From positions 1 through 39,492 of IMG/VR virus record IMGVR_UViG_3300045988_127307: a DNA stretch of 39,492 bases. The stretch is one strand, 5' to 3'. A program made the position numbers and the translations under genes. This DNA comes from a virus. The notes beneath the pieces are model-generated. The model ran no database searches, was not told the origin of the DNA, and saw only the letters and a program-made list of their open reading frames with translations. Shown piece after piece: positions 115-37,476 of this stretch (positions are counted from its first letter, which is position 1; every line of letters begins with the position of its first letter).

Positions 115-598
115 GCAAAAGAAGTTTGTAGAAGAATACTTAATAGACCTTAATGCCACTCAAGCGGCTATTAGGGCTGGATATAGCACGGAATCAGCAA
201 AAGAAATTGGTTGTGAAAACTTAACGAAACCTAACGTAAAAGCTGAAATAGACAAAGCTATAGCGGAAAGAAGTCGAAGGACAGGTATTAATCAAGATAG
301 AGTTTTAAGGGAGTTAGCAAAGATAGCATTTGTTAATCCAGGAGATGTAATAAATTTAAATCAAGCTACTGTAAAATCAGATGCAAAAGAAGAAGATTTA
401 GCAGCTATAGCAAGTGTAAAAATAAAAAACATACCAACAGAAGATGGAGAAATAACAGAAAGGGAAATAAAACTATGCGACAAGCTAAAAGCATTGGATT
501 TACTCGGTAAACATCTAGGAATATATGACAAGAAAGATGCTGAGGATAAAAACCTAACAATAACAATCAATAAGGCAAGTGAAAAAAATGGAAATTAA
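95..598 (+). CDS. terS: terminase small subunit
   Basis: Track ORF 86-598. ATG 95 lies 8 nt after SD AAGGAG (81-86). The N-terminal HTH-like segment ([25 protein letters not shown]) is typical of the Terminase_2/P27 small-subunit family. It sits directly upstream of terL. Confidence 0.8.
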
Positions 599-1565
599 CA
601 TAACTTGCAATGATCACTTTGAAGATTTTGTTTTAGATTGGAACTATAAATTTTATTTTCTTGTTGGTGGTTATGGCAGCTCTAAAAGTTATCATGTGGT
701 CCAAAAGCTGCATCTAAAATTATTACAAGAAAAGAGATTAGCATTAGTTGTAAGGGAAGTATATGACACTATACGAGATAGCTGCTTTTCACTTTTACAA
801 GATGTAGCAGTAGATATGGGGATATATGATATGCTTAAATTTAAGACATCGCCAATGCAAGTAACATATCCTAATGGGAGCAAGATAATTTTTAAAGGTA
901 TGGATAAACCAGCTAAATTAAAATCTATCAATGGTGTATCTATTATATGGGTTGAAGAATGTTCCGAGGTTAAATATGAGGGCTTTAAAGAACTTTTAGG
1001 GCGTTTAAGACATCCTACACTCAGTAATCACATTATACTTAGCGAAAACCCTATAGAAAAGGCCAACTGGACTTATAAGCATTTTTTTATTGATGAAGAA
1101 AATAATAAGAAAATACTTGATGATGAAAAACTTTATATTGAAAGAATTATCAAGACAAATAATACATACTATCATCATTCCATTTGTGATGACAATTATT
1201 TTCTACCTCAGGACTATATAAAAGAGCTTGATAACATGAAAGAATACGACCCAGATTTATATAGAGTAGCTAGACAAGGTAGATTTGGTATAAATGGTAC
1301 CAAAGTATTACCGCAATTTGAAATGATGGACCACGATTTAGTTATGGCCAAAGTAGGTTCTATCCCTTCTAGATTTTATAGAGTTGGCATGGACTTTGGA
1401 TTTGAAACTTCATACAATGCATTAGTTAGAATTGCTATAGATGATGTGAATAAAGATTTGTATATTTACTGGGAATATTATAAAAATCATATGACAGATG
1501 ATAAGACTGCTAAAGAAATAGATGAATTTAGAGTAAATAAAGAGTTAATAAGAGCAGATAGTGCT
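579..1565 (+). CDS. terL: terminase large subunit, exon 1 (ATPase domain and part of the nuclease domain)
   Basis: Walker A-like GGYGSSKS and Walker B-like IIWVEE motifs. The ORF stops right after the conserved ...IRADSA, at TAA 1566-1568. The rest of the domain resumes at 2462. Confidence 0.85.
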
Positions 1566-2461
1566 TAATGGTTAGGCACTTAACCTGGTTAATTGCTGGA
1601 AACCCCTAAAGCTTTAGATACCAAAGAGTAAAAATTCTAAAGATGCTACAATGGGCAATCAGCAGCAATATTATAATTATTTAATGTTTTATGCAACGAA
1701 ACTATCCGAAATGTGTTATAATTATATTAAGGAGAGTGGTTGATATGAAACAAATAAATAAAATTAAAGGATATGAAAATATAAGAGATGTATATTACAT
1801 AACAGAAAATGGAAAAGTATTTAGCTATGCAAGTAACAATTTAAAAAGAAAAGATACTTGTAAAGAAATAAAACAATACAAGAAAACTGGAGGGTATTTA
1901 AATGTAGCACTAGTAACAAATGAGCAAAAAGTAAAATATGTAAGAGTTCATAGACTAGTAGCTTTAGCTTTTATACCTAATCCAGATAATAAAGAATATG
2001 TAAATCACATAGATGAAAATAGACAAAATAATAATGTATCAAATTTAGAATGGGTAACACCTAAAGAGAATAATTTACACTCATTAACTAAAAAAACTTA
2101 TGTATATGATTTAGAAGGTAATTTAGTTAAAATTTATAATTATACACACGAATGTAAAGTTGATGGGTTTAATCAAGGGCATGTATGTGCATGTGCTAGA
2201 GGTGAAGAAAGAACTCATAAAAAACATATATTTTCATATACACCTTTAACAAAAGATGATGTTGTTCAACGACTAGCGAAATCATTTTATCTTAAATAGA
2301 TAGAATAAGAAAGTAGGGTACACTCAAGTGAGTGGAAAAGCCAGGCAATAATTAAGACCGAGAGGTCTTTTTTATTGAAGATATAGTCTAGACTTATGTG
2401 AGAGCATAAGAAGTTCATAAGAGAACTGCATAAGATTAACGACCTTATGTGAATGAAATAG
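1566..2461 (+). mobile_element. group I intron (896 nt) carrying an HNH homing endonuclease ORF
   Basis: The 5' exon ends in U1565 and the intron ends in G2461. P1: AGTGCT (1560-1565) pairs with GGCACT (1575-1580), including a U1565-G1575 wobble. P10: GGTT (1570-1573) pairs with AACC (2463-2466). Hairpins lie in the 3' part (AGACC-gaga-GGTCT, CTTATG-tgagag-CATAAG). Joining 1565 to 2462 restores ...[17 protein letters not shown]... Confidence 0.75.
1745..2299 (+). CDS. intron-encoded HNH homing endonuclease (NUMOD4-like N-terminus plus HNH_3)
   Basis: ATG 1745 follows SD AGGAGAG. Motifs: IKGYENIRDVYYITENGKVFSY and NHIDENRQNNNVSNLEWVTPKEN. An extended -10 TGTTATAAT lies at 1714-1722. Confidence 0.8.
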   Translation: MKQINKIKGYENIRDVYYITENGKVFSYASNNLKRKDTCKEIKQYKKTGGYLNVALVTNEQKVKYVRVHRLVALAFIPNPDNKEYVNHIDENRQNNNVSNLEWVTPKENNLHSLTKKTYVYDLEGNLVKIYNYTHECKVDGFNQGHVCACARGEERTHKKHIFSYTPLTKDDVVQRLAKSFYLK

Positions 2462-2758
2462 GAACCCAAGACAATTAGATTTTATCAGCAAGAAGGTTTT
2501 AAAATGATAGGGGCTAAAAAATATCAAGGCTCTAGGCTTCAAAATACTAAAAAAGTAAAAAGATTTAAGCATATATATTGCTCAACTAAATGTGTTAATG
2601 TAAAAAAAGAATTGAAGGATCTAACATATAAGCAAAATGAAAAAGGTGAGAATATATATGATGAATTTAATATAGACCCTCATACTTTGAGTGCTATTTG
2701 GTATGCATTAGATGGTTATGAGGTTGCAGATTATAAAAGACATTATCACAGTAGATAG
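2462..2758 (+). CDS. terL: terminase large subunit, exon 2 (C-terminal nuclease motifs)
   Basis: The frame is open from 2462 (stop TAG at 2459-2461). It encodes [24 protein letters not shown]...[13 protein letters not shown], matching the family pattern ADSAEPKSI...KKG.GS...H..DA.RYAL. Confidence 0.8.
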
Positions 2759-2773
2759 AAAGGAGGTTACAAG

Positions 2774-4198
2774 ATGTTTAATAGTTATCAAGAGTTTGTT
2801 ACTGCTGAACTTACTGGATTGTATGGCTCGGCAGTATTACAAGAAATGAACGATATACTAAGACTGTATGACATATACGAAGGTCGAGAAAACTTTATAG
2901 ACAAGTCAGAAGAAAAAGATTATACACAGACAGAAAAAAGAACAAATCTGATTAAGAAACTTATAAAAGAAGAATCTAGATTTTTATTCGGCAAGACTCC
3001 AGAGCTATATGTTCAATCTAAAAACGATACAGATACTGACAAGGATAAAGCTGAACAAATAAATCTTTATTTAGATAAGATATTAAAAGATAATCTATTC
3101 TCAGAGAAGCTTGTAAAAGGTGCTAGAGACTGCTTTATCGGTAAAAGAGCTGCTATTAAATTATATGCTAACCAAGATACAAAAGAGATTAGGATAATGT
3201 TTTTACCTAGCTTGGAATTTATCTACGAGAGTGACGAAGAAAATCCTAACGAACTTAAAAAGATAATATTCTTCTATCAGACAAATAAGGAAGTTGAAAA
3301 AGATAAGCAACGTATTTGGAAGCAAAAGTATGAAATGATAGATGGAAGATGTATATTAAATGAAGGCATCTACAATGGTAATGGGATATTAATAGAGCCT
3401 ATAAATGTAGATGTAGACTTGCAATTAAGTGGTATTCCTTGCTATGTCATTATTAATGACGGATTAAGCGGCGACCCATTTGGCGAAAGTGACGTAAAAG
3501 AGCTTCTAGATAATCAGATTCAATACAATAGACTATCAAGTGAAGATGTTGACACTCTTAGAAAAGGTATGGATAGGATTATTTATGGTATCGACATAGA
3601 CCCAGAAGCATCTGAAAAATTTAAACTAAAGCCTGGAGCATTTTGGGACGTACCAACAGACCCTACAGCAGAAGGGAAACAAGCTACACTAGATACAATA
3701 CCGACAGATTTTAATTATGGAGACAAGATAGAAAATTCTCTAAAACGTATTAAGTCAGATATGTACGAGATGCTAAATATACCAATGCTATCAAATGACG
3801 AGCTAAAAGGCATGATGACATCAGGCAAAACTATGAAAGCACTGTATTGGCAACTTATTACTAGATGTGAAGAGAAGATGATGGCATGGCGACCAGCTTT
3901 AGAGTGGTTAATAAGAGCAATACTTGAAATTACAGAAGTATATCAAATAGAAAAATTACCGCAACTTGATTATACTGTTACAGTAGAAAATAACTATCCT
4001 TTACAGGAAGATGAAGACGAAGAAAAGACATTAGACTTGCAACAAGTAAATGCACAGGCTATGTCTAGAAAAACATTCATCAAGAAATGGCAAGGTGTTA
4101 CAGATGATGTGGCCGATGCTGAAATAAAACAAATAGCATTAGAAAGAGAAATGCTAGAGGAGAGTTATGTATCTGGAATGAGTGATTCAGTTGAATAA
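2774..4198 (+). CDS. portal protein (SPP1 gp6-like)
   Basis: 474 aa, immediately after terL, with an acidic C-terminus. SD AAGGAGG lies upstream. Confidence 0.8.
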   Translation: MFNSYQEFVTAELTGLYGSAVLQEMNDILRLYDIYEGRENFIDKSEEKDYTQTEKRTNLIKKLIKEESRFLFGKTPELYVQSKNDTDTDKDKAEQINLYLDKILKDNLFSEKLVKGARDCFIGKRAAIKLYANQDTKEIRIMFLPSLEFIYESDEENPNELKKIIFFYQTNKEVEKDKQRIWKQKYEMIDGRCILNEGIYNGNGILIEPINVDVDLQLSGIPCYVIINDGLSGDPFGESDVKELLDNQIQYNRLSSEDVDTLRKGMDRIIYGIDIDPEASEKFKLKPGAFWDVPTDPTAEGKQATLDTIPTDFNYGDKIENSLKRIKSDMYEMLNIPMLSNDELKGMMTSGKTMKALYWQLITRCEEKMMAWRPALEWLIRAILEITEVYQIEKLPQLDYTVTVENNYPLQEDEDEEKTLDLQQVNAQAMSRKTFIKKWQGVTDDVADAEIKQIALEREMLEESYVSGMSDSVE

Positions 4199-25800: not shown

Positions 25801-25859
25801 TTACTGACAATTTACTGACCAGTTAAGTTTTTACTGACAAAACTGACAATTTACTGACT
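25801..25859 (+). repeat. five direct copies of (T/A)(T/A)ACTGAC(A/C/T) (putative integrase arm-type sites, int-proximal arm)
   Basis: Copies start at 25801, 25812, 25831, 25841 and 25851, all in the same orientation. The last overlaps the int stop codon. Confidence 0.6.
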
Positions 25860-26978
25860 TAGTATATTGTCAATTTTGTCAACTGCTATCTTATCATTTT
25901 CCTTAAAAGCATGCGCGTAGATTTTTAATGTAATAGATATGTCGGAATGACCCACGCGTTCTGATATTGTTTTTACATCTACACCAGATGCAACTAACAT
26001 AGAAACATGAGAATGTCTTAATGCATGTAGCTTTTTAAATTCAAGCCCAATTCTTTTAATAAATCGTTTAAAAGTAATATCTAAATTGTACGGATTATAA
26101 TAATTGTTATTGCTGTTTATGCATACTGTGTCATATTCTTTTTCTTTCATTAAACCTTGTAACTTTAATTTATTTTGTCTTAATTTCTCTTTTTTTAGCA
26201 TGTCAAAAACATGATCTGGCAGAGAAATTTTTCTTATTGATGATTTACTCTTTGGTTGCTTCATGATATATTTACCTTCTATGTATTGTAAATTATATTG
26301 AATTTTTATAGTTTTATTTTCAAAGTCTACACAATCCCATGTTAAACCTAAAACCTCACCGCGTCTTAGACCTCCATAGATTAAAAGCTTTATAGCATTT
26401 TGAAAATATATACTTTCACTTTCTAAAGCGTTTAGTATCTGTTTTATTTCTTCTATCGAATATATTTCTTCTTCGTGTGTTTTATTATTCTTTGGAAGGA
26501 TAATAAAATCAGTAATCTTTTTATTTATCTCTTGTAATCTGTATGCTTCATTTAGTACAGCATTGCATAATTGCATTATTTTTCGTTTTGAGCGATAAGC
26601 TAAATCTTTTTGAAACACATAATTAACAAATGTTTGATATTTATTTACAGTTATGTCACTTAATTTCATATTTCCCCAATAAGGTTCGACATGTTTTTTT
26701 ACGATACTTTTCGCACAAGCAATAGTATTTTCAGATATCCCTAACTTGCTATCGTAATATCGATAACAGCGATTTGTAAAAGAAATGTTACTCGGCAAAG
26801 CATAAATATCATTATTTATACTATTTTTAACTTCTATTAATTTTTTATCTGCATCTTTTTTATTTATAAAACTACCTTGCGACTTTTGTTTCTTTTTGCC
26901 AACTTCATCTATATATTCTACATATACATAATATTTGTCATTTCTTTTACGTATAAAACTACTTAAAATTTTTTTCAT
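25851..26978 (-). CDS. int: tyrosine integrase
   Basis: 375 aa with the catalytic pattern GLRRGE ... LRHSH ... GHSDISITLKIYAH (R, H-x-x-R, H, Y). SD AAGGAGGG lies upstream. Confidence 0.9.
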   Translation of the reverse strand: MKKILSSFIRKRNDKYYVYVEYIDEVGKKKQKSQGSFINKKDADKKLIEVKNSINNDIYALPSNISFTNRCYRYYDSKLGISENTIACAKSIVKKHVEPYWGNMKLSDITVNKYQTFVNYVFQKDLAYRSKRKIMQLCNAVLNEAYRLQEINKKITDFIILPKNNKTHEEEIYSIEEIKQILNALESESIYFQNAIKLLIYGGLRRGEVLGLTWDCVDFENKTIKIQYNLQYIEGKYIMKQPKSKSSIRKISLPDHVFDMLKKEKLRQNKLKLQGLMKEKEYDTVCINSNNNYYNPYNLDITFKRFIKRIGLEFKKLHALRHSHVSMLVASGVDVKTISERVGHSDISITLKIYAHAFKENDKIAVDKIDNILSQ

Positions 26979-27032: not shown

Positions 27033-27548
27033 CTATAATTTTAATATTTGTTCTTTTTTATTTTCATATTCTTCTTCAGTTATAGCACCCATATCTAGAA
27101 GTTTTTTGAATTTCATTAATTCATCTGCATCACTTGATATATTTTGACTTCTATAGTTATTTTTATTTTCTATATAGTTCTCTATATATCCTTTAATTTC
27201 TAATATTTGTTCATTATCTTTTTTAGTGAAAGAAATAGTATTTTCATCTTGTACCGCATTAAAAACTCCACCTTTAGCCTCTTGGCTACCCATTAATATT
27301 ATTTGTAGATATCCAGTAGTTAAACCGGGTTTTTTATATTGTACTCCTGTTACATTGTCTAAGCAGATTTTCTTTGTACCTGTAAAACCTTTATTTATTG
27401 AATTCATAATTCCTTTAGCGGTAATAGAAATAAATTTCCCTTCTAAGACAATTTCATATTTACCGTTTGATTTTAAATTGTAAACTTTTTTAGAAGTTAT
27501 AACTTGTCTTTCATTAGATTTATCTTTTTTAGATTTAAATAATCCCAT
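27033..27548 (-). CDS. PH-like (DUF4429-type) plus SHOCT domain protein; candidate superinfection-exclusion or moron gene
   Basis: ATG 27548 follows SD AGAGGGGG (the track ORF starts at 27587). The C-terminus DELMKFKKLLDMGAITEEEYENKKEQIL matches the SHOCT motif. Its position between int and the repressor supports the candidate role. Confidence 0.6.
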   Translation of the reverse strand: MGLFKSKKDKSNERQVITSKKVYNLKSNGKYEIVLEGKFISITAKGIMNSINKGFTGTKKICLDNVTGVQYKKPGLTTGYLQIILMGSQEAKGGVFNAVQDENTISFTKKDNEQILEIKGYIENYIENKNNYRSQNISSDADELMKFKKLLDMGAITEEEYENKKEQILKL

Positions 27549-27655
27549 AATTATCCCCCTCTTTAGTTTTTTCTTAAATTGTAGCATATATTAACATATT
27601 TTACCTTTATTTGCAGAAATTTATATAAAATATTCCAAATACTTTTTGATTGGTG

Positions 27656-27661
27656 TATAAT
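27656..27661 (+). promoter_or_regulatory. -10 hexamer TATAAT for the micro-ORF transcription unit
   Basis: Consensus hexamer with a weak -35 TTCCAA at 27633-27638 (17-bp spacing). Confidence 0.35.
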
Positions 27662-27679
27662 ATAGTATAAGAAAAAATG

Positions 27680-27695
27680 TAGAACATTTGTTCTA
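27680..27695. promoter_or_regulatory. LexA (SOS / Cheo) box
   Basis: The perfect palindrome TAGAACA-TT-TGTTCTA contains AGAACATTTGTTCT, which matches GAAC-N4-GTTC, the Firmicute LexA consensus core. Confidence 0.6.
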
Positions 27696-27725
27696 TGAAA
27701 ATATTTTGTTTATAAGGGGGATAAA

Positions 27726-27839
27726 ATGGAAAATAAAAAGAAAGCTTCAATGCTGGGTGAGAAATTTTTAAAAAGATTAGAAATTATCGCTATGCTTACA
27801 GAGAAAAAACAAAATATTAATCAGGAGAAACAAAAATAG
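27726..27839 (+). CDS. 37-aa basic micro-protein (MENKKKASMLGEKFLKRLEIIAMLTEKKQNINQEKQK)
   Basis: Below the ORF-track cutoff. SD AAGGGGG lies 5-6 nt before the ATG. It has its own -10 element, an SOS box and a terminator. Confidence 0.45.
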   Translation: MENKKKASMLGEKFLKRLEIIAMLTEKKQNINQEKQK

Positions 27840-27896
27840 AATTATTTAGTAAAAAAACAGGTGAATAAAAACGTAAAAAACTTAAAATAATAAAAA

Positions 27897-27930
27897 GGAA
27901 CTAGAGATATAACTCTAAGTTCCTTTTTTT
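27897..27930. terminator. bidirectional intrinsic terminator shared by the micro-ORF (+) and the repressor (-)
   Basis: GGAACTAGAG-atataa-CTCTAAGTTCC (one bulge), flanked by an A-run on the 5' side and T7 on the 3' side. It overlaps the repressor stop codon. Confidence 0.6.
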
Positions 27931-28346
27931 ATATTTTTTATAAATTTAACCATATTCTCTAGATCATCACTGCTAATTCCATTAAATATCTTTGAAAATT
28001 TCAAGACATTTATAAATTCATCTTCAGTTAAATCTTTGGTAGATATTAAAAATTCTATAACTTTATTAAATTGTTCATCGGTAAGATTTTCAGTAAGTTT
28101 TTCAACTGCTTCTAACTTTTTTAATTCTTTTTTAAAAGGTCTTTCTTCAGAAGCACCTACTAAATAATCAGCAGATACATTAAAAAAATCAGCTAGTTTA
28201 AAAAGTGTCTCAACATCATATTTTCTAAAATCTTTCTCCCAACTATTTATTGTTTGTTTAGAAACTTTTAAGTAATCTGCTAATTCTTGCATAGTCATTT
28301 TTCTTTCTAATCTTAAATCTCTCAGTATTTCCCCTTGTGTTGGCAT
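27915..28346 (-). CDS. CI-like repressor (XRE HTH) without an S24 peptidase domain
   Basis: ATG 28346 follows SD GAGGAGG (the track ORF starts at 28376). HTH: MTMQELADYLKVSKQTINSWE. The C-terminal half contains three about 15-aa repeats (LTDEQFNKVIEFL / LTEDEFINVLKF / SSDDLENMVKFI). No Ala-Gly / Ser-Lys autocleavage signature is present. Confidence 0.8.
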   Translation of the reverse strand: MPTQGEILRDLRLERKMTMQELADYLKVSKQTINSWEKDFRKYDVETLFKLADFFNVSADYLVGASEERPFKKELKKLEAVEKLTENLTDEQFNKVIEFLISTKDLTEDEFINVLKFSKIFNGISSDDLENMVKFIKNIKKGT

Positions 28347-28508: not shown

Positions 28509-28537
28509 TTGACAGCATACTTTTTGAGTACTACAAT
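28509..28537 (+). promoter_or_regulatory. early rightward promoter: TTGACA, 17 bp, TACAAT
   Basis: Consensus -35 at 28509-28514 and near-consensus -10 at 28532-28537, about 30 bp upstream of the cro-like gene. Confidence 0.65.
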
Positions 28538-28567: not shown

Positions 28568-28792
28568 ATGATGGTAAAATCTTACAGAAGATTTCATAAT
28601 ATGACACAAAGTGATATGGCTAACGTTTTAGGAATATCTACAATGAGCTATTGTAGAAAAGAAAATGGAGAAAGAGAATTTAAACTATCTGAAGCTAAAA
28701 CAATCGCTGACCTTTTTGGATGTACAATAGAGGAAATTTTTTTTACAAATAATGTCTACTCTAAGAGTATTAATTTAAGTCAGGTATTGTAA
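28568..28792 (+). CDS. Cro-like XRE-family HTH regulator
   Basis: 74 aa, divergent from the repressor. HTH: MTQSDMANVLGISTMSYCRKENG. Confidence 0.75.
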   Translation: MMVKSYRRFHNMTQSDMANVLGISTMSYCRKENGEREFKLSEAKTIADLFGCTIEEIFFTNNVYSKSINLSQVL

Positions 28793-28839: not shown

Positions 28840-29676
28840 ATGGATTACATAAACGAAATGAACAAAACTGTAGAAAGAATAGTACAAACAGTATCATCAA
28901 GAGAAGTGGCTGAAATGATGGAAGTTAGACATGCAGATTTAATAGGAAAAATAGAAAGACATACAACAATACTAGAAAAAGTTAACGAACGAAATTTTTC
29001 GTTGGTTGATTTATGGCAATTAAGTTCTTACAAAGATGCAAAAGGTGAAACAAGAAAAGAGTATCAAGTAACTAAAAAAGGCTGTGAATTTCTAGCACAT
29101 AAAACAACTGGAGAAAAGGGAGATTTATTCACTATAAGATATATGAATAAATTTGAGGAAATGGAACAGTACATAAAAGAACAACAAGTACCTCAGTTAA
29201 CAGAAAAACAAATGCTGCAGTTACAAATCCTAAATGGTGATGAAATGGAGAGAATAGGAGCTTTAAAACAATATGAGGGAGTTATAACTAAACCTCTAAT
29301 AGACACAATAGAAAAACAGTCAGATGCAATAAACGAATTAAAACCGCATGCAGAATATGCAGAAAGAGTTTTAGAAGATAAAAAAACATTATTAACTCCA
29401 ACTCAAATAGCTAAAGATTTTGGAATGGCTGGTAAAGCATTAAATGCATTACTCCATGATCTAGGAGTTCAATATAAACAAAACGGACAATGGCTTTTAT
29501 ATGCTAAGTATCAAGGTAAAGGATATACAGGACCATATCAACCAGATATACCGAATGCTAAACCTCAGACAAGATGGACTCAAGCTGGTAAAAAGTTTAT
29601 CCATGATATTTTAAGAAAAAATGGTTACAAGACACTTTTAGAAGACAAACAAGAGCAACAAAGCTTTTTTAACTAA
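28840..29676 (+). CDS. antirepressor (Rha-type N-terminal domain plus KilAC/ANT C-terminal domain)
   Basis: N-terminus VSSREVAEMMEVRHADLIGKIE. C-terminus LLTPTQIAKDFGMAGKALNALLHDLGVQYKQNGQWLL. Confidence 0.8.
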   Translation: MDYINEMNKTVERIVQTVSSREVAEMMEVRHADLIGKIERHTTILEKVNERNFSLVDLWQLSSYKDAKGETRKEYQVTKKGCEFLAHKTTGEKGDLFTIRYMNKFEEMEQYIKEQQVPQLTEKQMLQLQILNGDEMERIGALKQYEGVITKPLIDTIEKQSDAINELKPHAEYAERVLEDKKTLLTPTQIAKDFGMAGKALNALLHDLGVQYKQNGQWLLYAKYQGKGYTGPYQPDIPNAKPQTRWTQAGKKFIHDILRKNGYKTLLEDKQEQQSFFN

Positions 29677-35250: not shown

Positions 35251-35259
35251 GTGAATAAA

Positions 35260-36240
35260 ATGATTGGATTAATAGATGTAGATAGTAAAATTCCTAATCT
35301 TGCACTTATGAAACTTTCAACTTATTACAAGTCAATCGGAGAAACAGTCGAATTTGTGCAAGATGGAAAAGAATACGAAAAAATATTTGCAAGTGCAATT
35401 TTTACTAGAAGTAAATCTATTTGTGAAGATCTAGTAAATAAATATGAAGATAAAATAGAAATCGGTGGAACAGGCTGGGATATAAAAAAGACTTTGCCTG
35501 ATAAAATTGAAAAACTTAGACCTGATTATGAGCTATATAGCATAGAAGAAATAGCTAGTAGAATGAAAGGTATTGGAACAAAGGAACACAAACTAAAAAA
35601 GGCTAAGGAAATTGTAGAGGCTGGTATGGGATATACATCTAGAGGTTGTGTAAGAAATTGTGGATTTTGCTTTGTACCAGAAAAAGAAGGTGAGTTTCAT
35701 GATGTAGCTGAAATAAGTGATTTACTTAATCCTAAAAGTAATATTTTGATTTTACATGATAATAATCTTACTGCTGATCCGTATTGCATAGATAAACTAA
35801 AAGAAATAAAAGAACGTAAACTTATAGTTGATATAAATCAAGGATGTGATGTAAGACTTATGACAGATGAAAAGGCTTACTGGTTAGGACAAGTAAAACA
35901 TTTAAGAAGTTTACATTATGCATGGGATTTAATGGGACACGAAAGAAAGGTGCTAGAAGGTATTGAAACACTTAGCAAGCATGTAAAGAAGTATAAACAT
36001 ATGTGCTTTATGTTAGTTGGTTATAACACTACTTTTGAGGAAGATATGTATAGATTTAAAACATTAACTTCGTTAAAAGTAGACCCATTTGTAATGATTT
36101 ATAATCAAATACCTGATTTAAGACTTAAACATTTTGCTAGATGGGTTAATAGTAGAATTTATAAGAAATGCACAAATTTTGAAGAATACGGACCTTGGGT
36201 AAAGGCTCAAGTGAAATATAATCAACTGACATTTTTTTAG
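35260..36240 (+). CDS. radical SAM enzyme with an N-terminal Rossmann/B12-binding-like region
   Basis: A CX3CX2C cluster lies in GYTSRGCVRNCGFCFVP. ATG 35260 follows SD AGGTGA (the track ORF starts at GTG 35251). Confidence 0.75.
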   Translation: MIGLIDVDSKIPNLALMKLSTYYKSIGETVEFVQDGKEYEKIFASAIFTRSKSICEDLVNKYEDKIEIGGTGWDIKKTLPDKIEKLRPDYELYSIEEIASRMKGIGTKEHKLKKAKEIVEAGMGYTSRGCVRNCGFCFVPEKEGEFHDVAEISDLLNPKSNILILHDNNLTADPYCIDKLKEIKERKLIVDINQGCDVRLMTDEKAYWLGQVKHLRSLHYAWDLMGHERKVLEGIETLSKHVKKYKHMCFMLVGYNTTFEEDMYRFKTLTSLKVDPFVMIYNQIPDLRLKHFARWVNSRIYKKCTNFEEYGPWVKAQVKYNQLTFF

Positions 36241-36255
36241 GAGGATATAAAGAAA

Positions 36256-36819
36256 TTGAATACAGAAGAAAAAAACAAATTAGCAGAAGAAAATTTAGGA
36301 TTAGTTTATTTAGTTGTAAACAAAGAATTTACTTATGAAAAAACTACAGAAAGCGATAGAGAAAACTACATAGAAGAAGGTATGATTGGATTAGCAAAAG
36401 CTATTAATACATTTAATCCAAGTAAAGGTGCTAAATTTAGTACATATGCTTATACATGCATAAAATTTGAAATAAATAGCTATGTAAGAAAGAAAAACAA
36501 TCATAAAAGAAAAATAAACTATGTTTGTAAAAATTCAATAGATGAATATATAAAAGGAGATGAAGGGAGTAAAATATTAACTCACAAAGATATTTTAATG
36601 GATACGAAAGATGCTTATTCTTCTTTAGTAAATAGAGATGAAATATTAAATATACTTGGAAAGATGAAGATAAAAAATATAAAGTATATCACTTTAAAAC
36701 GTGCAGAAGGTTATACGTATGAAAAAATAGGTAATAAAATTGGAGTTAGTAAAGAAACAATACGAGCAAGATTGAATAAAGCTAAAAAAGAATTAATCGA
36801 ATTAGGAATAACAGCATAA
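36256..36819 (+). CDS. sigma-70 family RNA polymerase sigma factor
   Basis: Region 2: EEGMIGLAKAINTFNPSKGAKFSTYAYTCIKFEI. Region 4 HTH: EGYTYEKIGNKIGVSKETIRARLNKAKKEL. The start codon is TTG. Confidence 0.8.
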   Translation: MNTEEKNKLAEENLGLVYLVVNKEFTYEKTTESDRENYIEEGMIGLAKAINTFNPSKGAKFSTYAYTCIKFEINSYVRKKNNHKRKINYVCKNSIDEYIKGDEGSKILTHKDILMDTKDAYSSLVNRDEILNILGKMKIKNIKYITLKRAEGYTYEKIGNKIGVSKETIRARLNKAKKELIELGITA

Positions 36820-37096: not shown

Positions 37097-37202
37097 GTGA
37101 AAAAATGATTGGAGCTCAAGTGAAATATAATCAACTGACCTCCTTTTAGGAGGGAATATGAACAAAGAAGAAATGGAAAGGAATAGAGAAAAAAATGAAT
37201 AA
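37094..37202 (+). repeat. collapsed copy of the rSAM gene ends plus its downstream RBS, with a possible degenerate sigma-like start
   Basis: 37094-37113 matches 35248-35268 (SD plus ATG ATT GGA; one indel). 37114-37139 is identical to 36205-36230 (the last 26 nt of the rSAM gene excluding its stop). TTTTAGGAGG is shared after that point. Confidence 0.85.
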
Positions 37203-37476
37203 AAAAGAAAATACAATAAAATACTTCATGAAGGCATCAGAAAATGAGGAATTATTTACAACTATCGCAATGGAAGAATGTGCAGAATTAATTCAAGCAA
37301 TAAGCAAAGCAAAACGAGGCAAATTGGATGCTGACAACATGGCAGAGGAAATAGCTGATGTACTAATAGGAATTGAATGGCTTAAAGAATTATATGATAT
37401 TGATGCTTTAGAAGTACAAAAGTGGATAGCATATAAACAAAACAGAATCGCAAAAAAACTGGAAAATAGGGGGTAA
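37195..37476 (+). CDS. MazG-like nucleotide pyrophosphohydrolase
   Basis: The segment AMEECAELIQAIS...MAEEIADVLIGIEWL carries EE..E and EE..D metal-binding helices. Confidence 0.65.
   Translation: MNKKENTIKYFMKASENEELFTTIAMEECAELIQAISKAKRGKLDADNMAEEIADVLIGIEWLKELYDIDALEVQKWIAYKQNRIAKKLENRG

What the first reader, a model, noticed from the sequence alone, without database searches (positions are those of the whole stretch)
27633..27930. SOS box controlling a self-contained 37-codon transcription unit that converges on a repressor lacking a cleavage domain
A perfect 16-bp palindrome, TAGAACA-TT-TGTTCTA (27680-27695), contains AGAACATTTGTTCT. This matches the Firmicute LexA core GAAC-N4-GTTC. 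It starts 19 bp downstream of a consensus TATAAT (27656-27661) and ends 30 bp upstream of an SD-preceded 37-codon ORF (27726-27839). The unit ends at a bidirectional terminator (27897-27930) shared tail-to-tail with the repressor gene. The repressor (27915-28346) has an XRE HTH, but its C-terminal half is three short repeats with no S24 peptidase (Ala-Gly / Ser...Lys) signature, so RecA-stimulated autocleavage is unlikely. One inference is that DNA damage reaches the switch through host LexA, which would derepress either a tiny anti-repressor peptide (as with Tum of coliphage 186 or gp7 of GIL01) or a transcript that reads antisense into the repressor gene. I recognise no family for the peptide. 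A single 8-position match has roughly a 0.3 chance of occurring somewhere in 39 kb of this base composition, so the location and the full 16-bp symmetry carry most of the argument.
Basis: partly seen in the sequence, partly recalled or inferred. Interest (0 to 1): 0.75.

Follow-up and report, generated by a model that had tools for sequence, protein, structure and literature searches.

The report
SOS-controlled micro-antirepressor of a gut phage
A temperate phage from the human gut carries a 37-codon gene behind a host LexA (DNA-damage) operator, pointing tail-to-tail at a repressor that cannot cut itself; the gene most likely encodes a tiny helical protein that switches the repressor off after DNA damage, which would make it a stand-alone relative of the recently described AimX/AimC switch of Bacillus phages.

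Summary
TAGAACA-TT-TGTTCTA (27680-27695) is the only GAAC-N4-GTTC site in the window. It lies between a TATAAT and an SD-preceded 37-codon ORF that ends at a strong bidirectional terminator shared with an XRE repressor lacking an S24 domain.

Comparative data make this a real unit:
- All 17 related loci found through the repressor alone keep a LexA-type box (GTTC or the C. difficile-type GTTT half-site), the -10, the SD and a 32-39-codon ORF.
- The ORF is under purifying selection (pN/pS 0.18-0.49).
- The box is unchanged across three immunity types, so it is not a phage-repressor operator.
- The peptide occurs in three homologous classes (A-C), plus an unrelated class D at the same position. 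Each class is always found with one class of repressor C-terminal half, across recombination breakpoints on both sides.

The repressor is a distant homologue of AimC. PDB 9iaq and 9sf2 ("Phi106 repressor in complex with AimX") are among its best matches. The AimC antirepressor AimX is a 29-aa, LexA-controlled ORF convergent on aimC. The window has no aimR or aimP.

Best reading: a LexA-only micro-antirepressor, a new member of a known kind. LexA binding and the peptide-repressor contact remain untested.

The parts
27578..27586 (-). Leftward extended -10 (TGcTACAAT on the minus strand). It serves the variable 'moron' gene (here DUF4429+SHOCT, 27033-27548) and is not part of the SOS unit. It marks the left border of the divergent intergenic region.
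   Evidence: Read. This is the most conserved stretch of alignment A1. It lies about 95 nt from the box, so the box is unlikely to control it.
27656..27661 (+). -10 hexamer TATAAT of the micro-ORF promoter. The -35 is poor: TTCCAA at 27633-27638, with a 17-nt spacer.
   Evidence: TGTATAATAT is invariant in all class A, B and C loci.
27680..27695 (.). LexA-type SOS box TAGAACA-TT-TGTTCTA (core GAAC-N4-GTTC at 27682-27693).
   Evidence: It is the only match in the window. It matches the operator motif used and validated for C. difficile LexA (PMC4234289). The core AGAACAT.TGTT(C/T) is kept in all 17 related loci found through the repressor alone and across three immunity types.
27714..27721 (+). 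Shine-Dalgarno AAGGGGGA, 5 nt upstream of the ATG.
   Evidence: It is invariant in alignment A1 and in all classes.
27726..27839 (+). 37-codon micro-ORF (class A peptide MENKKKASMLGEKFLKRLEIIAMLTEKKQNINQEKQK), the proposed micro-antirepressor.
   Evidence: Four diverged alleles all have 37 codons, with pN/pS 0.18-0.49 at pS up to 0.65. The peptide is predicted as a single helix, pLDDT 97. Only 3 relatives were found among 1.84e9 representative proteins.
27892..27939 (.). Bidirectional intrinsic terminator shared by the micro-ORF and the repressor gene. Its right arm and U-run encode the repressor's last residues (KKGT).
   Evidence: -17.8 kcal/mol, z -5.4. The class B equivalent folds at -20.2 kcal/mol, z -6.1.
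27918..28235 (-). Repressor residues 38-143: the last two HTH helices, the linker and a helical C-terminal domain with three 18-aa repeats. This part swaps together with the micro-ORF class and is the proposed target of the peptide.
   Evidence: Sliding identity shows the breakpoints. The repeats are confirmed. The helical model is. The profile match to the AimC_BMBtp14 C-terminal domain is.
27915..28346 (-). Prophage repressor, 143 aa: XRE HTH plus a helical C-terminal domain, with no S24 or M78 domain.
   Evidence: HTH_3, 2.4e-16. (ImmR HTH, 4.6e-9). (Foldseek: 9sf2 at rank 2, 9iaq at rank 5). (profile: 9iaq_A 1.4e-9, 9sf2_A 3.7e-8).
28509..28537 (+). Early rightward promoter TTGACA-17-TACAAT, the presumed target of the repressor.
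   Evidence: 11 of 12 consensus positions.
28568..28792 (+). Cro-like (AimL-like) HTH gene, divergent from the repressor. It is the first gene of the early operon and is followed by a Rha/KilAC protein at 28840-29676.

Best explanation
The window is a temperate siphovirus-like genome from the human gut, probably infecting a member of the Peptostreptococcaceae.

Proposed mechanism:
1. The phage's CI-like repressor is a short XRE protein with a helical C-terminal oligomerisation domain and no autocleavage domain, so it cannot sense RecA directly.
2. A separate transcription unit sits tail-to-tail with the repressor gene: a sigma-A -10, one canonical LexA operator, an SD, a 37-codon ORF and a terminator.
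3. In a healthy lysogen, host LexA sits on the operator, about +13 to +28 of the transcript, and keeps the unit silent.
4. After DNA damage LexA is cleaved and the 37-residue single-helix peptide is made.
5. The peptide binds the C-terminal part of the repressor and prevents its oligomerisation, and therefore its operator binding.
6. This releases the early promoter at 28509-28537 (cro-like gene, Rha/KilAC, RecT, replication genes).

What is shown and what is inferred:
- Shown by sequence and comparison: the unit is real, conserved and coding. The box is a host-type operator and not a phage-repressor operator. The repressor is AimC-like and lacks a cleavage domain. Peptide class tracks the class of the repressor's C-terminal half.
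- Inferred: LexA occupancy, damage inducibility, and the physical peptide-repressor interaction with its effect on oligomerisation.
For: (1) Anatomy is confirmed.

(2) Unbiased conservation. Eighty loci were collected through repressor homology only. All 17 with class A, B or C repressors carry the promoter, a LexA-type box, the SD and a 32-39-codon convergent ORF. The scan found the exact GAAC-N4-GTTC box in 11 of them. The other 6 all read TAGAACATTTGTTTG, i.e. GAAC-N4-GTTT, when the five printed (L073, L076, L077, L082, L083) and L078 are inspected. GAAC-N4-GTTT is the form that dominates C. difficile SOS genes. None of about 58 more distant XRE repressors shows the arrangement.

(3) Coding constraint. 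pN/pS is 0.18-0.49 with the length fixed at 37 codons in four alleles, and 0.24-0.29 in class C.

(4) The box is a host operator. It is identical or near-identical next to three different HTH/operator/cro sets. Nothing like it occurs in the repressor-cro intergenic region. It is the only box in the phage.

(5) Natural swaps.
- Window vs L009: about 100% identical over repressor residues 1-37, the operators, cro and Int (99%), but the C-terminal part and the peptide belong to different classes.
- L009 vs L014: identical peptide and C-terminal part, different HTH and cro.
- Window vs L016: the promoter region is 100% identical, while the peptide and repressor differ.
- Across about 40 distinct contigs, no peptide class is found with a foreign C-terminal class.

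(6) Homology to a solved, tested system.
- The profile of class A-D repressors hits AimC_BMBtp14 (9iaq_A) at E = 1.4e-9 over the HTH and the C-terminal domain, and AimC_phi106 (9sf2_A) at 3.7e-8.
- Foldseek rank 2 is 'Phage Phi106 repressor in complex with AimX'.
- In that system a 29-aa ORF just downstream of a LexA site, convergent on aimC, binds the AimC C-terminal domain, blocks oligomerisation and DNA binding, and works as a protein, not as an RNA (bioRxiv 10.1101/2025.11.23.689978).

(7) The peptide is predicted as one long helix, like most AimX proteins.

(8) No other SOS entry route was found. No S24 or M78/ImmA domain turned up in the proteins scanned, which were the lysogeny module, the early region and the terminase/portal genes, not the remaining structural and lysis ORFs.

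(9) Peptide and C-terminal-domain net charges are anticorrelated: r = -0.73 for 14 non-independent pairs. For example, allele A2 pairs +9 with -8, while A1 pairs +5 with -2.
Against: - Nothing was tested at the bench. The host is uncultured or unidentified: the genome-contig scan found no prophage copy, so 'host LexA' rests on family-level inference.
- The peptide has no detectable similarity to AimX, Sar, Tum or any Pfam, PHROG or PDB entry.
- The peptide gene lies 75 nt from the 3' end of the repressor gene, so class-level co-inheritance could be plain linkage.
- Within class A the link is loose. The window and L002 repressors are 99% identical, yet their peptides are only about 70% identical, with a breakpoint between the ORF and the terminator.
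- The charge trend is not consistent within classes B and C.
- A test for SinI-like mimicry of the repressor's own helices by the peptide was not significant.
- The promoter has a poor -35, and the box lies downstream of the -10 rather than over it.
- Frameshifted (L029, 32 aa) and stop-loss (P0030, 54 aa) alleles exist.
- A complex prediction could not be run.
Confidence: 0.6

Rival explanations
1. The unit acts at the RNA level. SOS-induced convergent transcription, or a 3'-overlapping antisense RNA, lowers repressor expression by polymerase collision or RNA pairing, and the ORF is incidental.
For: The arrangement is convergent, and the shared hairpin makes the two mRNAs complementary over about 35 nt. 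The class B terminator has only four U residues in the micro-ORF direction, so some read-through is plausible. In L013 a 27-codon ORF overlaps the repressor's 3' end.
Against: A strong hairpin with a long U-run lies before the repressor body in the window. The SD is invariant, the length is fixed at 37 codons, and pN/pS is 0.18-0.49. In the homologous AimX/AimC system, start-codon mutants lost function and recoded alleles kept it, so the antisense effects were negligible.
Confidence: 0.1
2. The unit is LexA-controlled and coding, but the peptide targets something other than the phage repressor. Candidates are host LexA or RecA (as GIL01 gp7 does), cell division, a defence system, or it is a small SOS-induced 'moron' product.
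For: The unit sits in the moron-rich region between int and the repressor, next to a highly variable accessory gene. Peptide alleles can change while the repressor stays 99% identical. No interaction evidence exists.
Against: The peptide is hypervariable: three homologous classes with opposite net charges, plus an unrelated class D, in phages that share the same box and probably the same host group. That is not expected for a ligand of a conserved host protein. Peptide class follows the class of the repressor's C-terminal part. The peptide is hydrophilic (mean Kyte-Doolittle hydropathy -1.06), so it is not a membrane toxin. The box is canonical, so no gp7-like co-repressor is needed. The phage would otherwise lack any visible SOS input.
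Confidence: 0.15
3. The peptide is a recombination directionality factor, or another excision helper, expressed on SOS induction.
For: The unit is close to the integrase gene, no excisionase was identified in the window, and the peptide is small and basic.
Against: The window and L009 integrases are 99% identical (373 of 375 residues), while their peptides belong to different classes with opposite charge. The same architecture occurs beside a large serine recombinase in L038. A single 37-residue helix is unlike known Xis folds.
Confidence: 0.03
4. The palindrome is not a LexA site. It is either a chance match or the operator of a phage or other regulator.
For: A bare GAAC-N4-GTTC appears in 17% of shuffles. 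The site lies downstream of the -10 rather than across the promoter hexamers.
Against: The 14-nt core is kept in every related locus found without using the box. The only half-site change is C to T, which gives the other accepted LexA form. The site is unchanged across three repressor HTH types. The flanking and central bases vary while the LexA-specific positions do not.
Confidence: 0.07

Closest known systems
AimX-AimC-AimL 'extended arbitrium' module of Bacillus phages (phi106, phiW23, Wbeta, BMBtp14, Waukesha92). Sources: bioRxiv 10.1101/2025.11.23.689978; PDB 9sf2 and 9iaq.
   Same: - The repressor is a short single-HTH protein (80-140 aa) without an autocleavage domain, divergent from a cro-like gene.
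- A very small ORF (29-80 aa, mostly helical, hypervariable) is convergent on the repressor's 3' end.
- In the phi106 family a LexA site lies just upstream of that ORF.
- The repressor here is a detectable homologue: profile E = 1.4e-9 to 9iaq_A including the C-terminal domain, and Foldseek rank 2 to 9sf2.
- The partner co-varies with the repressor cluster (here).
   Different: - There is no aimR or aimP. The micro-ORF has its own -10 promoter, and LexA is the only visible input.
- The ORF does not overlap the repressor gene and is separated from it by a bidirectional terminator.
- The peptide has no sequence similarity to AimX.
- The probable host is a gut member of the Clostridia (Peptostreptococcaceae), not Bacillus.
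- The class A C-terminal domain carries three 18-aa repeats.
Sar-SroF switch of SPbeta/phi3T (bioRxiv 10.1101/2025.11.27.690993)
   Same: A small phage antirepressor sits behind a LexA SOS box. It inactivates a repressor that is not cleaved by RecA. Repressor-antirepressor pairs are phage-specific.
   Different: SroF is an integrase-fold monomeric repressor, and Sar mimics DNA. Here the repressor is an XRE HTH protein, and the expected mechanism is a block of oligomerisation. There is no sequence relationship.
Tum of coliphage 186 and the Gifsy/Fels antirepressors of Salmonella (PMC3121763)
   Same: The logic is the same: LexA represses an antirepressor gene, and the product inactivates a non-cleavable repressor non-covalently (the details on Tum are from general knowledge).
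   Different: These are Gram-negative systems with CTGT-N8-ACAG boxes and much larger proteins. There is no homology and the gene positions differ.
SinI-SinR of Bacillus subtilis (PDB 1b0n)
   Same: An XRE HTH repressor with a helical oligomerisation domain is neutralised by a small helical protein. 1b0n is Foldseek rank 7 for the repressor model, and the SinR chain scores 8.7e-6 in the profile search.
   Different: This is a chromosomal developmental switch that is not LexA-controlled. SinI resembles SinR's own helices, whereas similarity between the peptide here and its repressor's C-terminal domain was not significant.
GIL01 gp7 (PMC4551915)
   Same: It is a small protein from a Firmicute phage that is linked to LexA and the lysogeny decision.
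   Different: gp7 is a LexA co-repressor that strengthens LexA binding at non-canonical boxes, in a phage without a CI-type repressor. Here a CI-type repressor exists, the box is canonical, and the peptide is hypervariable.

Membership tests
AimX/AimC/AimL module (extended arbitrium) | The repressor is a short HTH protein with a helical C-terminal oligomerisation domain, homologous to AimC. | tested here: met
   The profile of class A-D repressors against PDB gives 9iaq_A at E = 1.4e-9 (profile positions 8-104, chain residues 36-136, HTH plus C-terminal domain) and 9sf2_A at 3.7e-8. Foldseek places them at ranks 2 and 5. The homology is distant, at 18-24% identity.
AimX/AimC/AimL module (extended arbitrium) | A cro-like HTH gene is divergent from the repressor and heads the early operon. 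| tested here: met
   The gene 28568-28792 (HTH_3) lies behind TTGACA-17-TACAAT.
AimX/AimC/AimL module (extended arbitrium) | A very small ORF is convergent on the 3' end of the repressor gene, with a LexA site just upstream (phi106 family). | tested here: met
   for the window, and for the description of the family. Here the ORF abuts the repressor gene rather than overlapping it.
AimX/AimC/AimL module (extended arbitrium) | The aimR receptor and aimP peptide genes lie upstream of the small ORF on the same strand. | tested here: not met
   Only 138 nt separate the micro-ORF from an oppositely oriented DUF4429/SHOCT gene, and no TPR/AimR-like ORF lies in the module. The window is therefore not a member of the arbitrium family, although it probably works like its AimX-AimC core.
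AimX/AimC/AimL module (extended arbitrium) | The small protein binds the repressor's C-terminal domain and blocks oligomerisation and DNA binding. | not testable with these tools
Only indirect support exists: class-level pairing and the helical prediction.
LexA-controlled phage antirepressors (Tum, Gifsy GfoA/GfhA, Sar) | A host-type LexA operator lies at the antirepressor promoter. | tested here: met
   AGAACATTTGTTCT is unique in the window. It matches GAACnnnnGTT(C/T), the form used for C. difficile LexA. It is conserved in an unbiased set of loci.
LexA-controlled phage antirepressors (Tum, Gifsy GfoA/GfhA, Sar) | LexA binds the site and the gene is induced by DNA damage. | not testable with these tools
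   This needs EMSA or a reporter assay, and the host is not identified to species.
LexA-controlled phage antirepressors (Tum, Gifsy GfoA/GfhA, Sar) | The master repressor lacks RecA-stimulated autocleavage. | tested here: met
   There is no Peptidase_S24 hit, the protein has 143 aa, and the C-terminal domain is predicted helical. The absence of cleavage itself was not assayed.
LexA-controlled phage antirepressors (Tum, Gifsy GfoA/GfhA, Sar) | The product shows sequence homology to a described antirepressor family. | tested here: not met
   No hit in Pfam, PHROGs, PDB, GenBank phages, or beyond 3 close relatives among 1.84e9 representative proteins.
Lambda CI / LexA-like S24 repressors | A C-terminal S24 peptidase domain with an Ala-Gly site and a Ser/Lys dyad. 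| tested here: not met
   By contrast, several distant XRE relatives are 210-250 aa long with LexA-like tails.
ImmR/ImmA-type repressor-protease pairs | An adjacent ImmA-like (M78/DUF955) metalloprotease gene. | tested here: not met
   The HTH is most similar to ImmR (7t8i, 4.6e-9). No such protease appears in the module, or in the early-region and terminase/portal proteins scanned.
GIL01 gp7-type LexA co-repressor | A small protein conserved with its host LexA partner, non-canonical boxes, and no CI-type repressor. | tested here: not met
   The box is canonical, a CI-type repressor is present, and the peptide is hypervariable between phages that share the same box.
Type I toxin-antitoxin / convergent antisense pairs of Firmicute prophages | A small hydrophobic membrane toxin with a 3'-overlapping antisense RNA. 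| tested here: not met
   The peptide is highly hydrophilic (mean KD -1.06, net charge +5). There is no Rfam match.
SinI/SinR-type mimicry | The antirepressor resembles the repressor's own oligomerisation helices. | tested here: inconclusive
   Smith-Waterman scores against shuffles gave p = 0.03-0.67 for cognate pairs, no better than for non-cognate pairs. Short amphipathic helices give the test little power.

The most novel reading that the evidence does not exclude
The block made of the repressor's C-terminal part, the terminator and the micro-ORF is an exchangeable 'induction-specificity' cassette that is independent of immunity specificity (recognition helix, operators, cro). If so, homoimmune phages such as the window and L009 would answer to different antirepressor peptides. 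Heteroimmune phages such as L009 and L014 would be cross-induced by the same peptide. This would create a network of trans-induction, or of insulation, among co-resident prophages of gut Clostridia.
Probability: 0.3. Interest if true: 0.65.

Novelty: new member of a known kind. Interest (0 to 1): 0.48.

Why it matters
Most temperate phages of gut Firmicutes carry short XRE repressors without a cleavage domain, and how they sense the SOS response is largely unknown. This locus offers a concrete and easily testable answer for one abundant group of human-gut phages.

It also extends the AimX/AimC type of micro-antirepressor switch, so far described only in Bacillus arbitrium phages, to Clostridia. 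It shows that the core can work without the peptide-communication layer.

The natural chimeras give ready-made specificity experiments: same HTH with a different C-terminal part and peptide, and the reverse. The case also shows that 30-40-codon genes, which annotation pipelines routinely skip, can hold the key input of the lysis-lysogeny switch.

Tried and rejected
- Peptide searches. The peptide was too short for the search for related loci and the search for homologous proteins. tblastn against GenBank phages found nothing. phmmer against 1.84e9 representative proteins found only 3 close relatives.
- Host. The genome-contig scan with the repressor returned only an irrelevant HTH match, so no host genome was obtained.
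- SinI-like decoy idea. Local alignments of the peptide against its repressor's C-terminal repeats were no better than shuffles and were not specific to cognate pairs. The idea was dropped as unsupported.
- Complex prediction.
- RNA element. Rfam gave nothing at the E-value or gathering thresholds.
- Box as a phage-repressor operator. Rejected: no similar sequence in the repressor-cro intergenic region, and the box is unchanged across three HTH types.
- Excision factor. Rejected, because the integrase is 99% identical between loci with different peptide classes.
- Cultured relatives. Terrisporobacter phage TPELB_ph1 and C. difficile phage phiCD24-1 were checked, and neither has the arrangement. 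Bacillus phage Athena gp4, the best Bacillus match to the repressor, has a LexA-type box upstream of its own gene, which is a different wiring.
- Charge complementarity. It is suggestive across classes but inconsistent within classes B and C, and the points are not independent. It is reported only as a hint.
Full report
**What is in the window**

The 39.5-kb window is a complete-looking temperate phage genome with about 30% G+C. It encodes:
- a small and a large terminase, a portal, and tail and lysis genes;
- a leftward lysogeny block: a tyrosine integrase at 25851-26978, a DUF4429+SHOCT accessory gene at 27033-27548, and an XRE repressor at 27915-28346;
- a rightward early operon: a cro-like HTH at 28568-28792, a Rha/KilAC protein, a Gp157/RecT pair, DnaB_2/IstB-like replication genes, a sigma factor and MazG.

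The finding lies in the 366 nt between the accessory gene and the repressor.

**Check of the observation**

All coordinates are right:
- TATAAT at 27656-27661;
- TAGAACA-TT-TGTTCTA at 27680-27695, which is 7+2+7 and not a fully symmetric 16-mer;
- SD AAGGGGG at 27714-27720;
- ATG at 27726, with a 37-codon ORF running to 27839;
- a hairpin at 27892-27928 with an A-run before it and a U-run after it (-17.8 kcal/mol, z = -5.4), whose right arm encodes the repressor's last residues.

GAAC-N4-GTTC occurs once in the window, and 17 of 100 shuffles give at least one match. The 14-nt form is expected 0.13 times even with one mismatch allowed. There is no second near-match in an intergenic region.

The repressor has only HTH_3-type domains. 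Its C-terminal half is predicted helical and contains three 18-residue repeats, with p < 2e-4.

Two weak points remain. The -35 is poor, so the consensus scan did not list the promoter. The box lies downstream of the -10, not over it.

**Is it more than chance? Comparative evidence**

IMG/VR relatives found through the repressor protein keep the -10, the box, the SD and a 37-codon ORF (alignment A1). In that alignment the outermost and central bases of the box vary, while AGAACAT.TGTTCT does not.

A Logan contig (L009), found through a repressor variant, has the same promoter, an identical box and the same SD. Its ORF is different: 39 codons with a TTG start.

Pattern scans of the viral and metagenome collections added about 45 loci (parsed). 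Those scans required the box, so I repeated the test without it. Of 80 loci collected by repressor homology only, all 17 with class A, B or C repressors carry the arrangement. The scan flagged the exact GAAC-N4-GTTC box in 11. The remaining 6 read TAGAACATTTGTTTG, i.e. GAAC-N4-GTTT, together with a small deletion before the SD; this was read directly in the five printed loci. None of about 58 more distant XRE repressors has the arrangement.

GAAC-N4-GTTT is the form found at lexA, recA and ruvC of C. difficile, where LexA binding was measured (PMC4234289).

**Is the ORF a gene?**

- Four class A alleles differ at up to 30% of residues, yet all have 37 codons.
- pN/pS is 0.18-0.49 with pS up to 0.65, and class C gives 0.24-0.29.
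- The SD is invariant.
- The peptide is hydrophilic, with net charge +5.
- It is predicted as one continuous helix, pLDDT 97.
- It has no relatives beyond this phage group.
- A stop-loss allele (54 aa) and a frameshifted class B allele exist.

**Whose operator is the box?**

The same box sits next to three different recognition-helix/operator/cro sets. Nothing similar occurs between the repressor and cro genes. It is therefore a site for a factor common to all these phages. Its sequence is the LexA operator of low-G+C Firmicutes.

The host is inferred at family level only, and no host genome was recovered:
- the endolysin and integrase are closest to Terrisporobacter phages;
- the portal is 66% identical to C. 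difficile phages phiCD24-1 and phiCDKH01;
- the samples are human-gut metagenomes.

**What does the peptide act on?**

The peptides fall into three homologous classes:
- class A: 37 aa, basic;
- class B: 39 aa, acidic;
- class C: 32 aa, which bridges A and B in sequence.

A fourth, unrelated peptide occupies the same position in L038.

Sliding identity shows recombination breakpoints just upstream of the ORF and inside the repressor gene after codon 37:
- Window and L009 are about 100% identical over the recognition helix, the operators and cro. Their integrases are 99% identical. They differ in the peptide and in repressor residues 38 to the end.
- L009 and L014 are identical in the peptide and in residues 38 to the end, but differ in the HTH and cro.
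- Window and L016 share the promoter region, but differ in the peptide and the repressor.

No peptide class was seen with a foreign C-terminal class. This is what a cognate pair would show. It is confounded by physical linkage, because the two are only 8-90 nt apart. It is also not strict at the allele level: the window and L002 repressors are 99% identical while their peptides are about 70% identical.

Net charges of the peptide and the C-terminal domain are anticorrelated across pairs (r = -0.73, n = 14, not independent). Within classes B and C the trend is not consistent. A test of whether the peptide mimics the repressor's own repeats was negative.

**Link to a characterised system**

A profile of the four repressor classes hits two AimC structures:
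- AimC of Bacillus phage BMBtp14 (PDB 9iaq_A) at E = 1.4e-9, over the HTH and the C-terminal domain;
- AimC of phi106 (9sf2_A) at 3.7e-8.

Foldseek places "Phage Phi106 repressor in complex with AimX" second, 9iaq fifth and SinR/SinI seventh. The C-terminal domain of the model has low confidence, so the sequence profile is the stronger evidence.

The preprint describing that system (10.1101/2025.11.23.689978) reports that:
- AimC is an 80-140-aa HTH repressor without a cleavage domain, divergent from a cro-like aimL;
- a 29-aa ORF (AimX) lies just downstream of a LexA site, convergent on aimC;
- AimX binds the AimC C-terminal domain, forms a heterodimer, and blocks oligomerisation and DNA binding;
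- start-codon and recoding experiments exclude a significant antisense role;
- AimX proteins are helical, hypervariable, and co-vary with AimC clusters.

The window reproduces this core but has no aimR or aimP. The micro-ORF has its own -10, and LexA is its only visible regulator. A second preprint shows LexA-controlled small antirepressors (Sar) in SPbeta-like phages. No description in Clostridia phages was found. The nearest cultured phages checked lack the arrangement.

**Mechanism proposed, and its status**

LexA holds the micro-ORF unit silent. DNA damage removes LexA. The helical peptide then binds the repressor's C-terminal part, prevents oligomerisation and releases the early promoter.
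- Shown: the anatomy, conservation, coding constraint, a host-type operator, a repressor without a cleavage domain, AimC homology, and class-level pairing.
- Inferred: LexA occupancy, inducibility, the physical interaction and its consequence.

I put 0.6 on the full statement, and about 0.85 on the narrower claim that this is a genuine LexA-controlled coding micro-gene.

The rivals are each less likely, for the reasons given in their entries: an RNA-level effect, a different target, an excision factor, and a non-LexA site.

**Verdict**

This is a stand-alone, LexA-only relative of the AimX-AimC micro-antirepressor switch, in human-gut Clostridia phages, with a peptide family that has not been described. 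I class it as a new member of a known kind, of moderate interest. Its main value lies in the natural chimeras, which make specificity directly testable.

Noticed in passing
window 579-2758: The large terminase gene appears split. 579-1568 carries Terminase_3 plus the first 60 positions of Terminase_3C. A 202-aa HNH_3 endonuclease ORF follows at 1691-2299. 2504-2758 carries Terminase_3C positions 76-154. This looks like an HNH-bearing intron or insertion inside terL. Rfam found no intron family at the gathering threshold.
   Followed up: partly
L005 / L081 (IMGVR_UViG_3300045988_122485), around L005 3971-4512: This is a close relative in which the repressor is truncated after about residue 50. 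The whole block of C-terminal domain, micro-ORF, accessory gene and integrase is missing, so the stub joins directly to the endolysin region. It may be a deletion derivative that can no longer lysogenise.
   Followed up: no
window 27033-27587 and the equivalent position in L009, L011, L012, L017, L024, L031: The gene between int and the micro-ORF is a highly variable cargo slot. It holds DUF4429+SHOCT here, and elsewhere several unrelated lipoproteins, a zinc-ribbon membrane protein or a TPR-like protein. It is always read from the same conserved leftward promoter, TGcTACAAT.
   Followed up: partly
L043, L047, L056 (metagenome contigs): This is an unrelated phage group. A LexA box (CAGAACATATGTTCTA) sits exactly between a TTGACA and a TAATAT. 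A 40-codon ORF (MGDYKEKIMQLVGKINDDKILRYIYIILDDIVKGEKKNEG) follows, convergent on a two-gene unit made of a 73-aa protein and an XRE repressor of 119-130 aa. This may be an independent instance of the same logic.
   Followed up: no
L038 5131-5320; L013 around 2274-2420: There are two further variants of 'LexA box, then micro-ORF, convergent on a short XRE repressor'. In L038 a 39-aa peptide ends 8 nt from a 106-aa repressor, beside a serine recombinase. In L013 a 27-codon ORF overlaps the repressor's 3' end.
   Followed up: partly
P0030; L029 7274-7372; L082: Variant alleles exist. A class A peptide has its stop codon changed (TAG to CAG), giving 54 aa. A class B ORF is frameshifted to 32 aa. 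In one locus the repressor is frameshifted to 79 aa while the micro-ORF is intact.
   Followed up: no
L062 (Bacillus phage vB_BanS_Athena, OK500002) 2872-3333: The best Bacillus match to the window repressor is not the AimC next to aimR/aimP. It is a second HTH gene (gp4) near the integrase, with GAACTTTTGTTC about 105 nt upstream of its own start. LexA may control that regulator directly there.
   Followed up: no
window 35251-36819: The phage carries an ECF-like sigma factor (36256-36819). It follows a 329-aa protein with a weak, sub-threshold radical-SAM match and precedes a MazG-like gene at 37195-37476.
   Followed up: no
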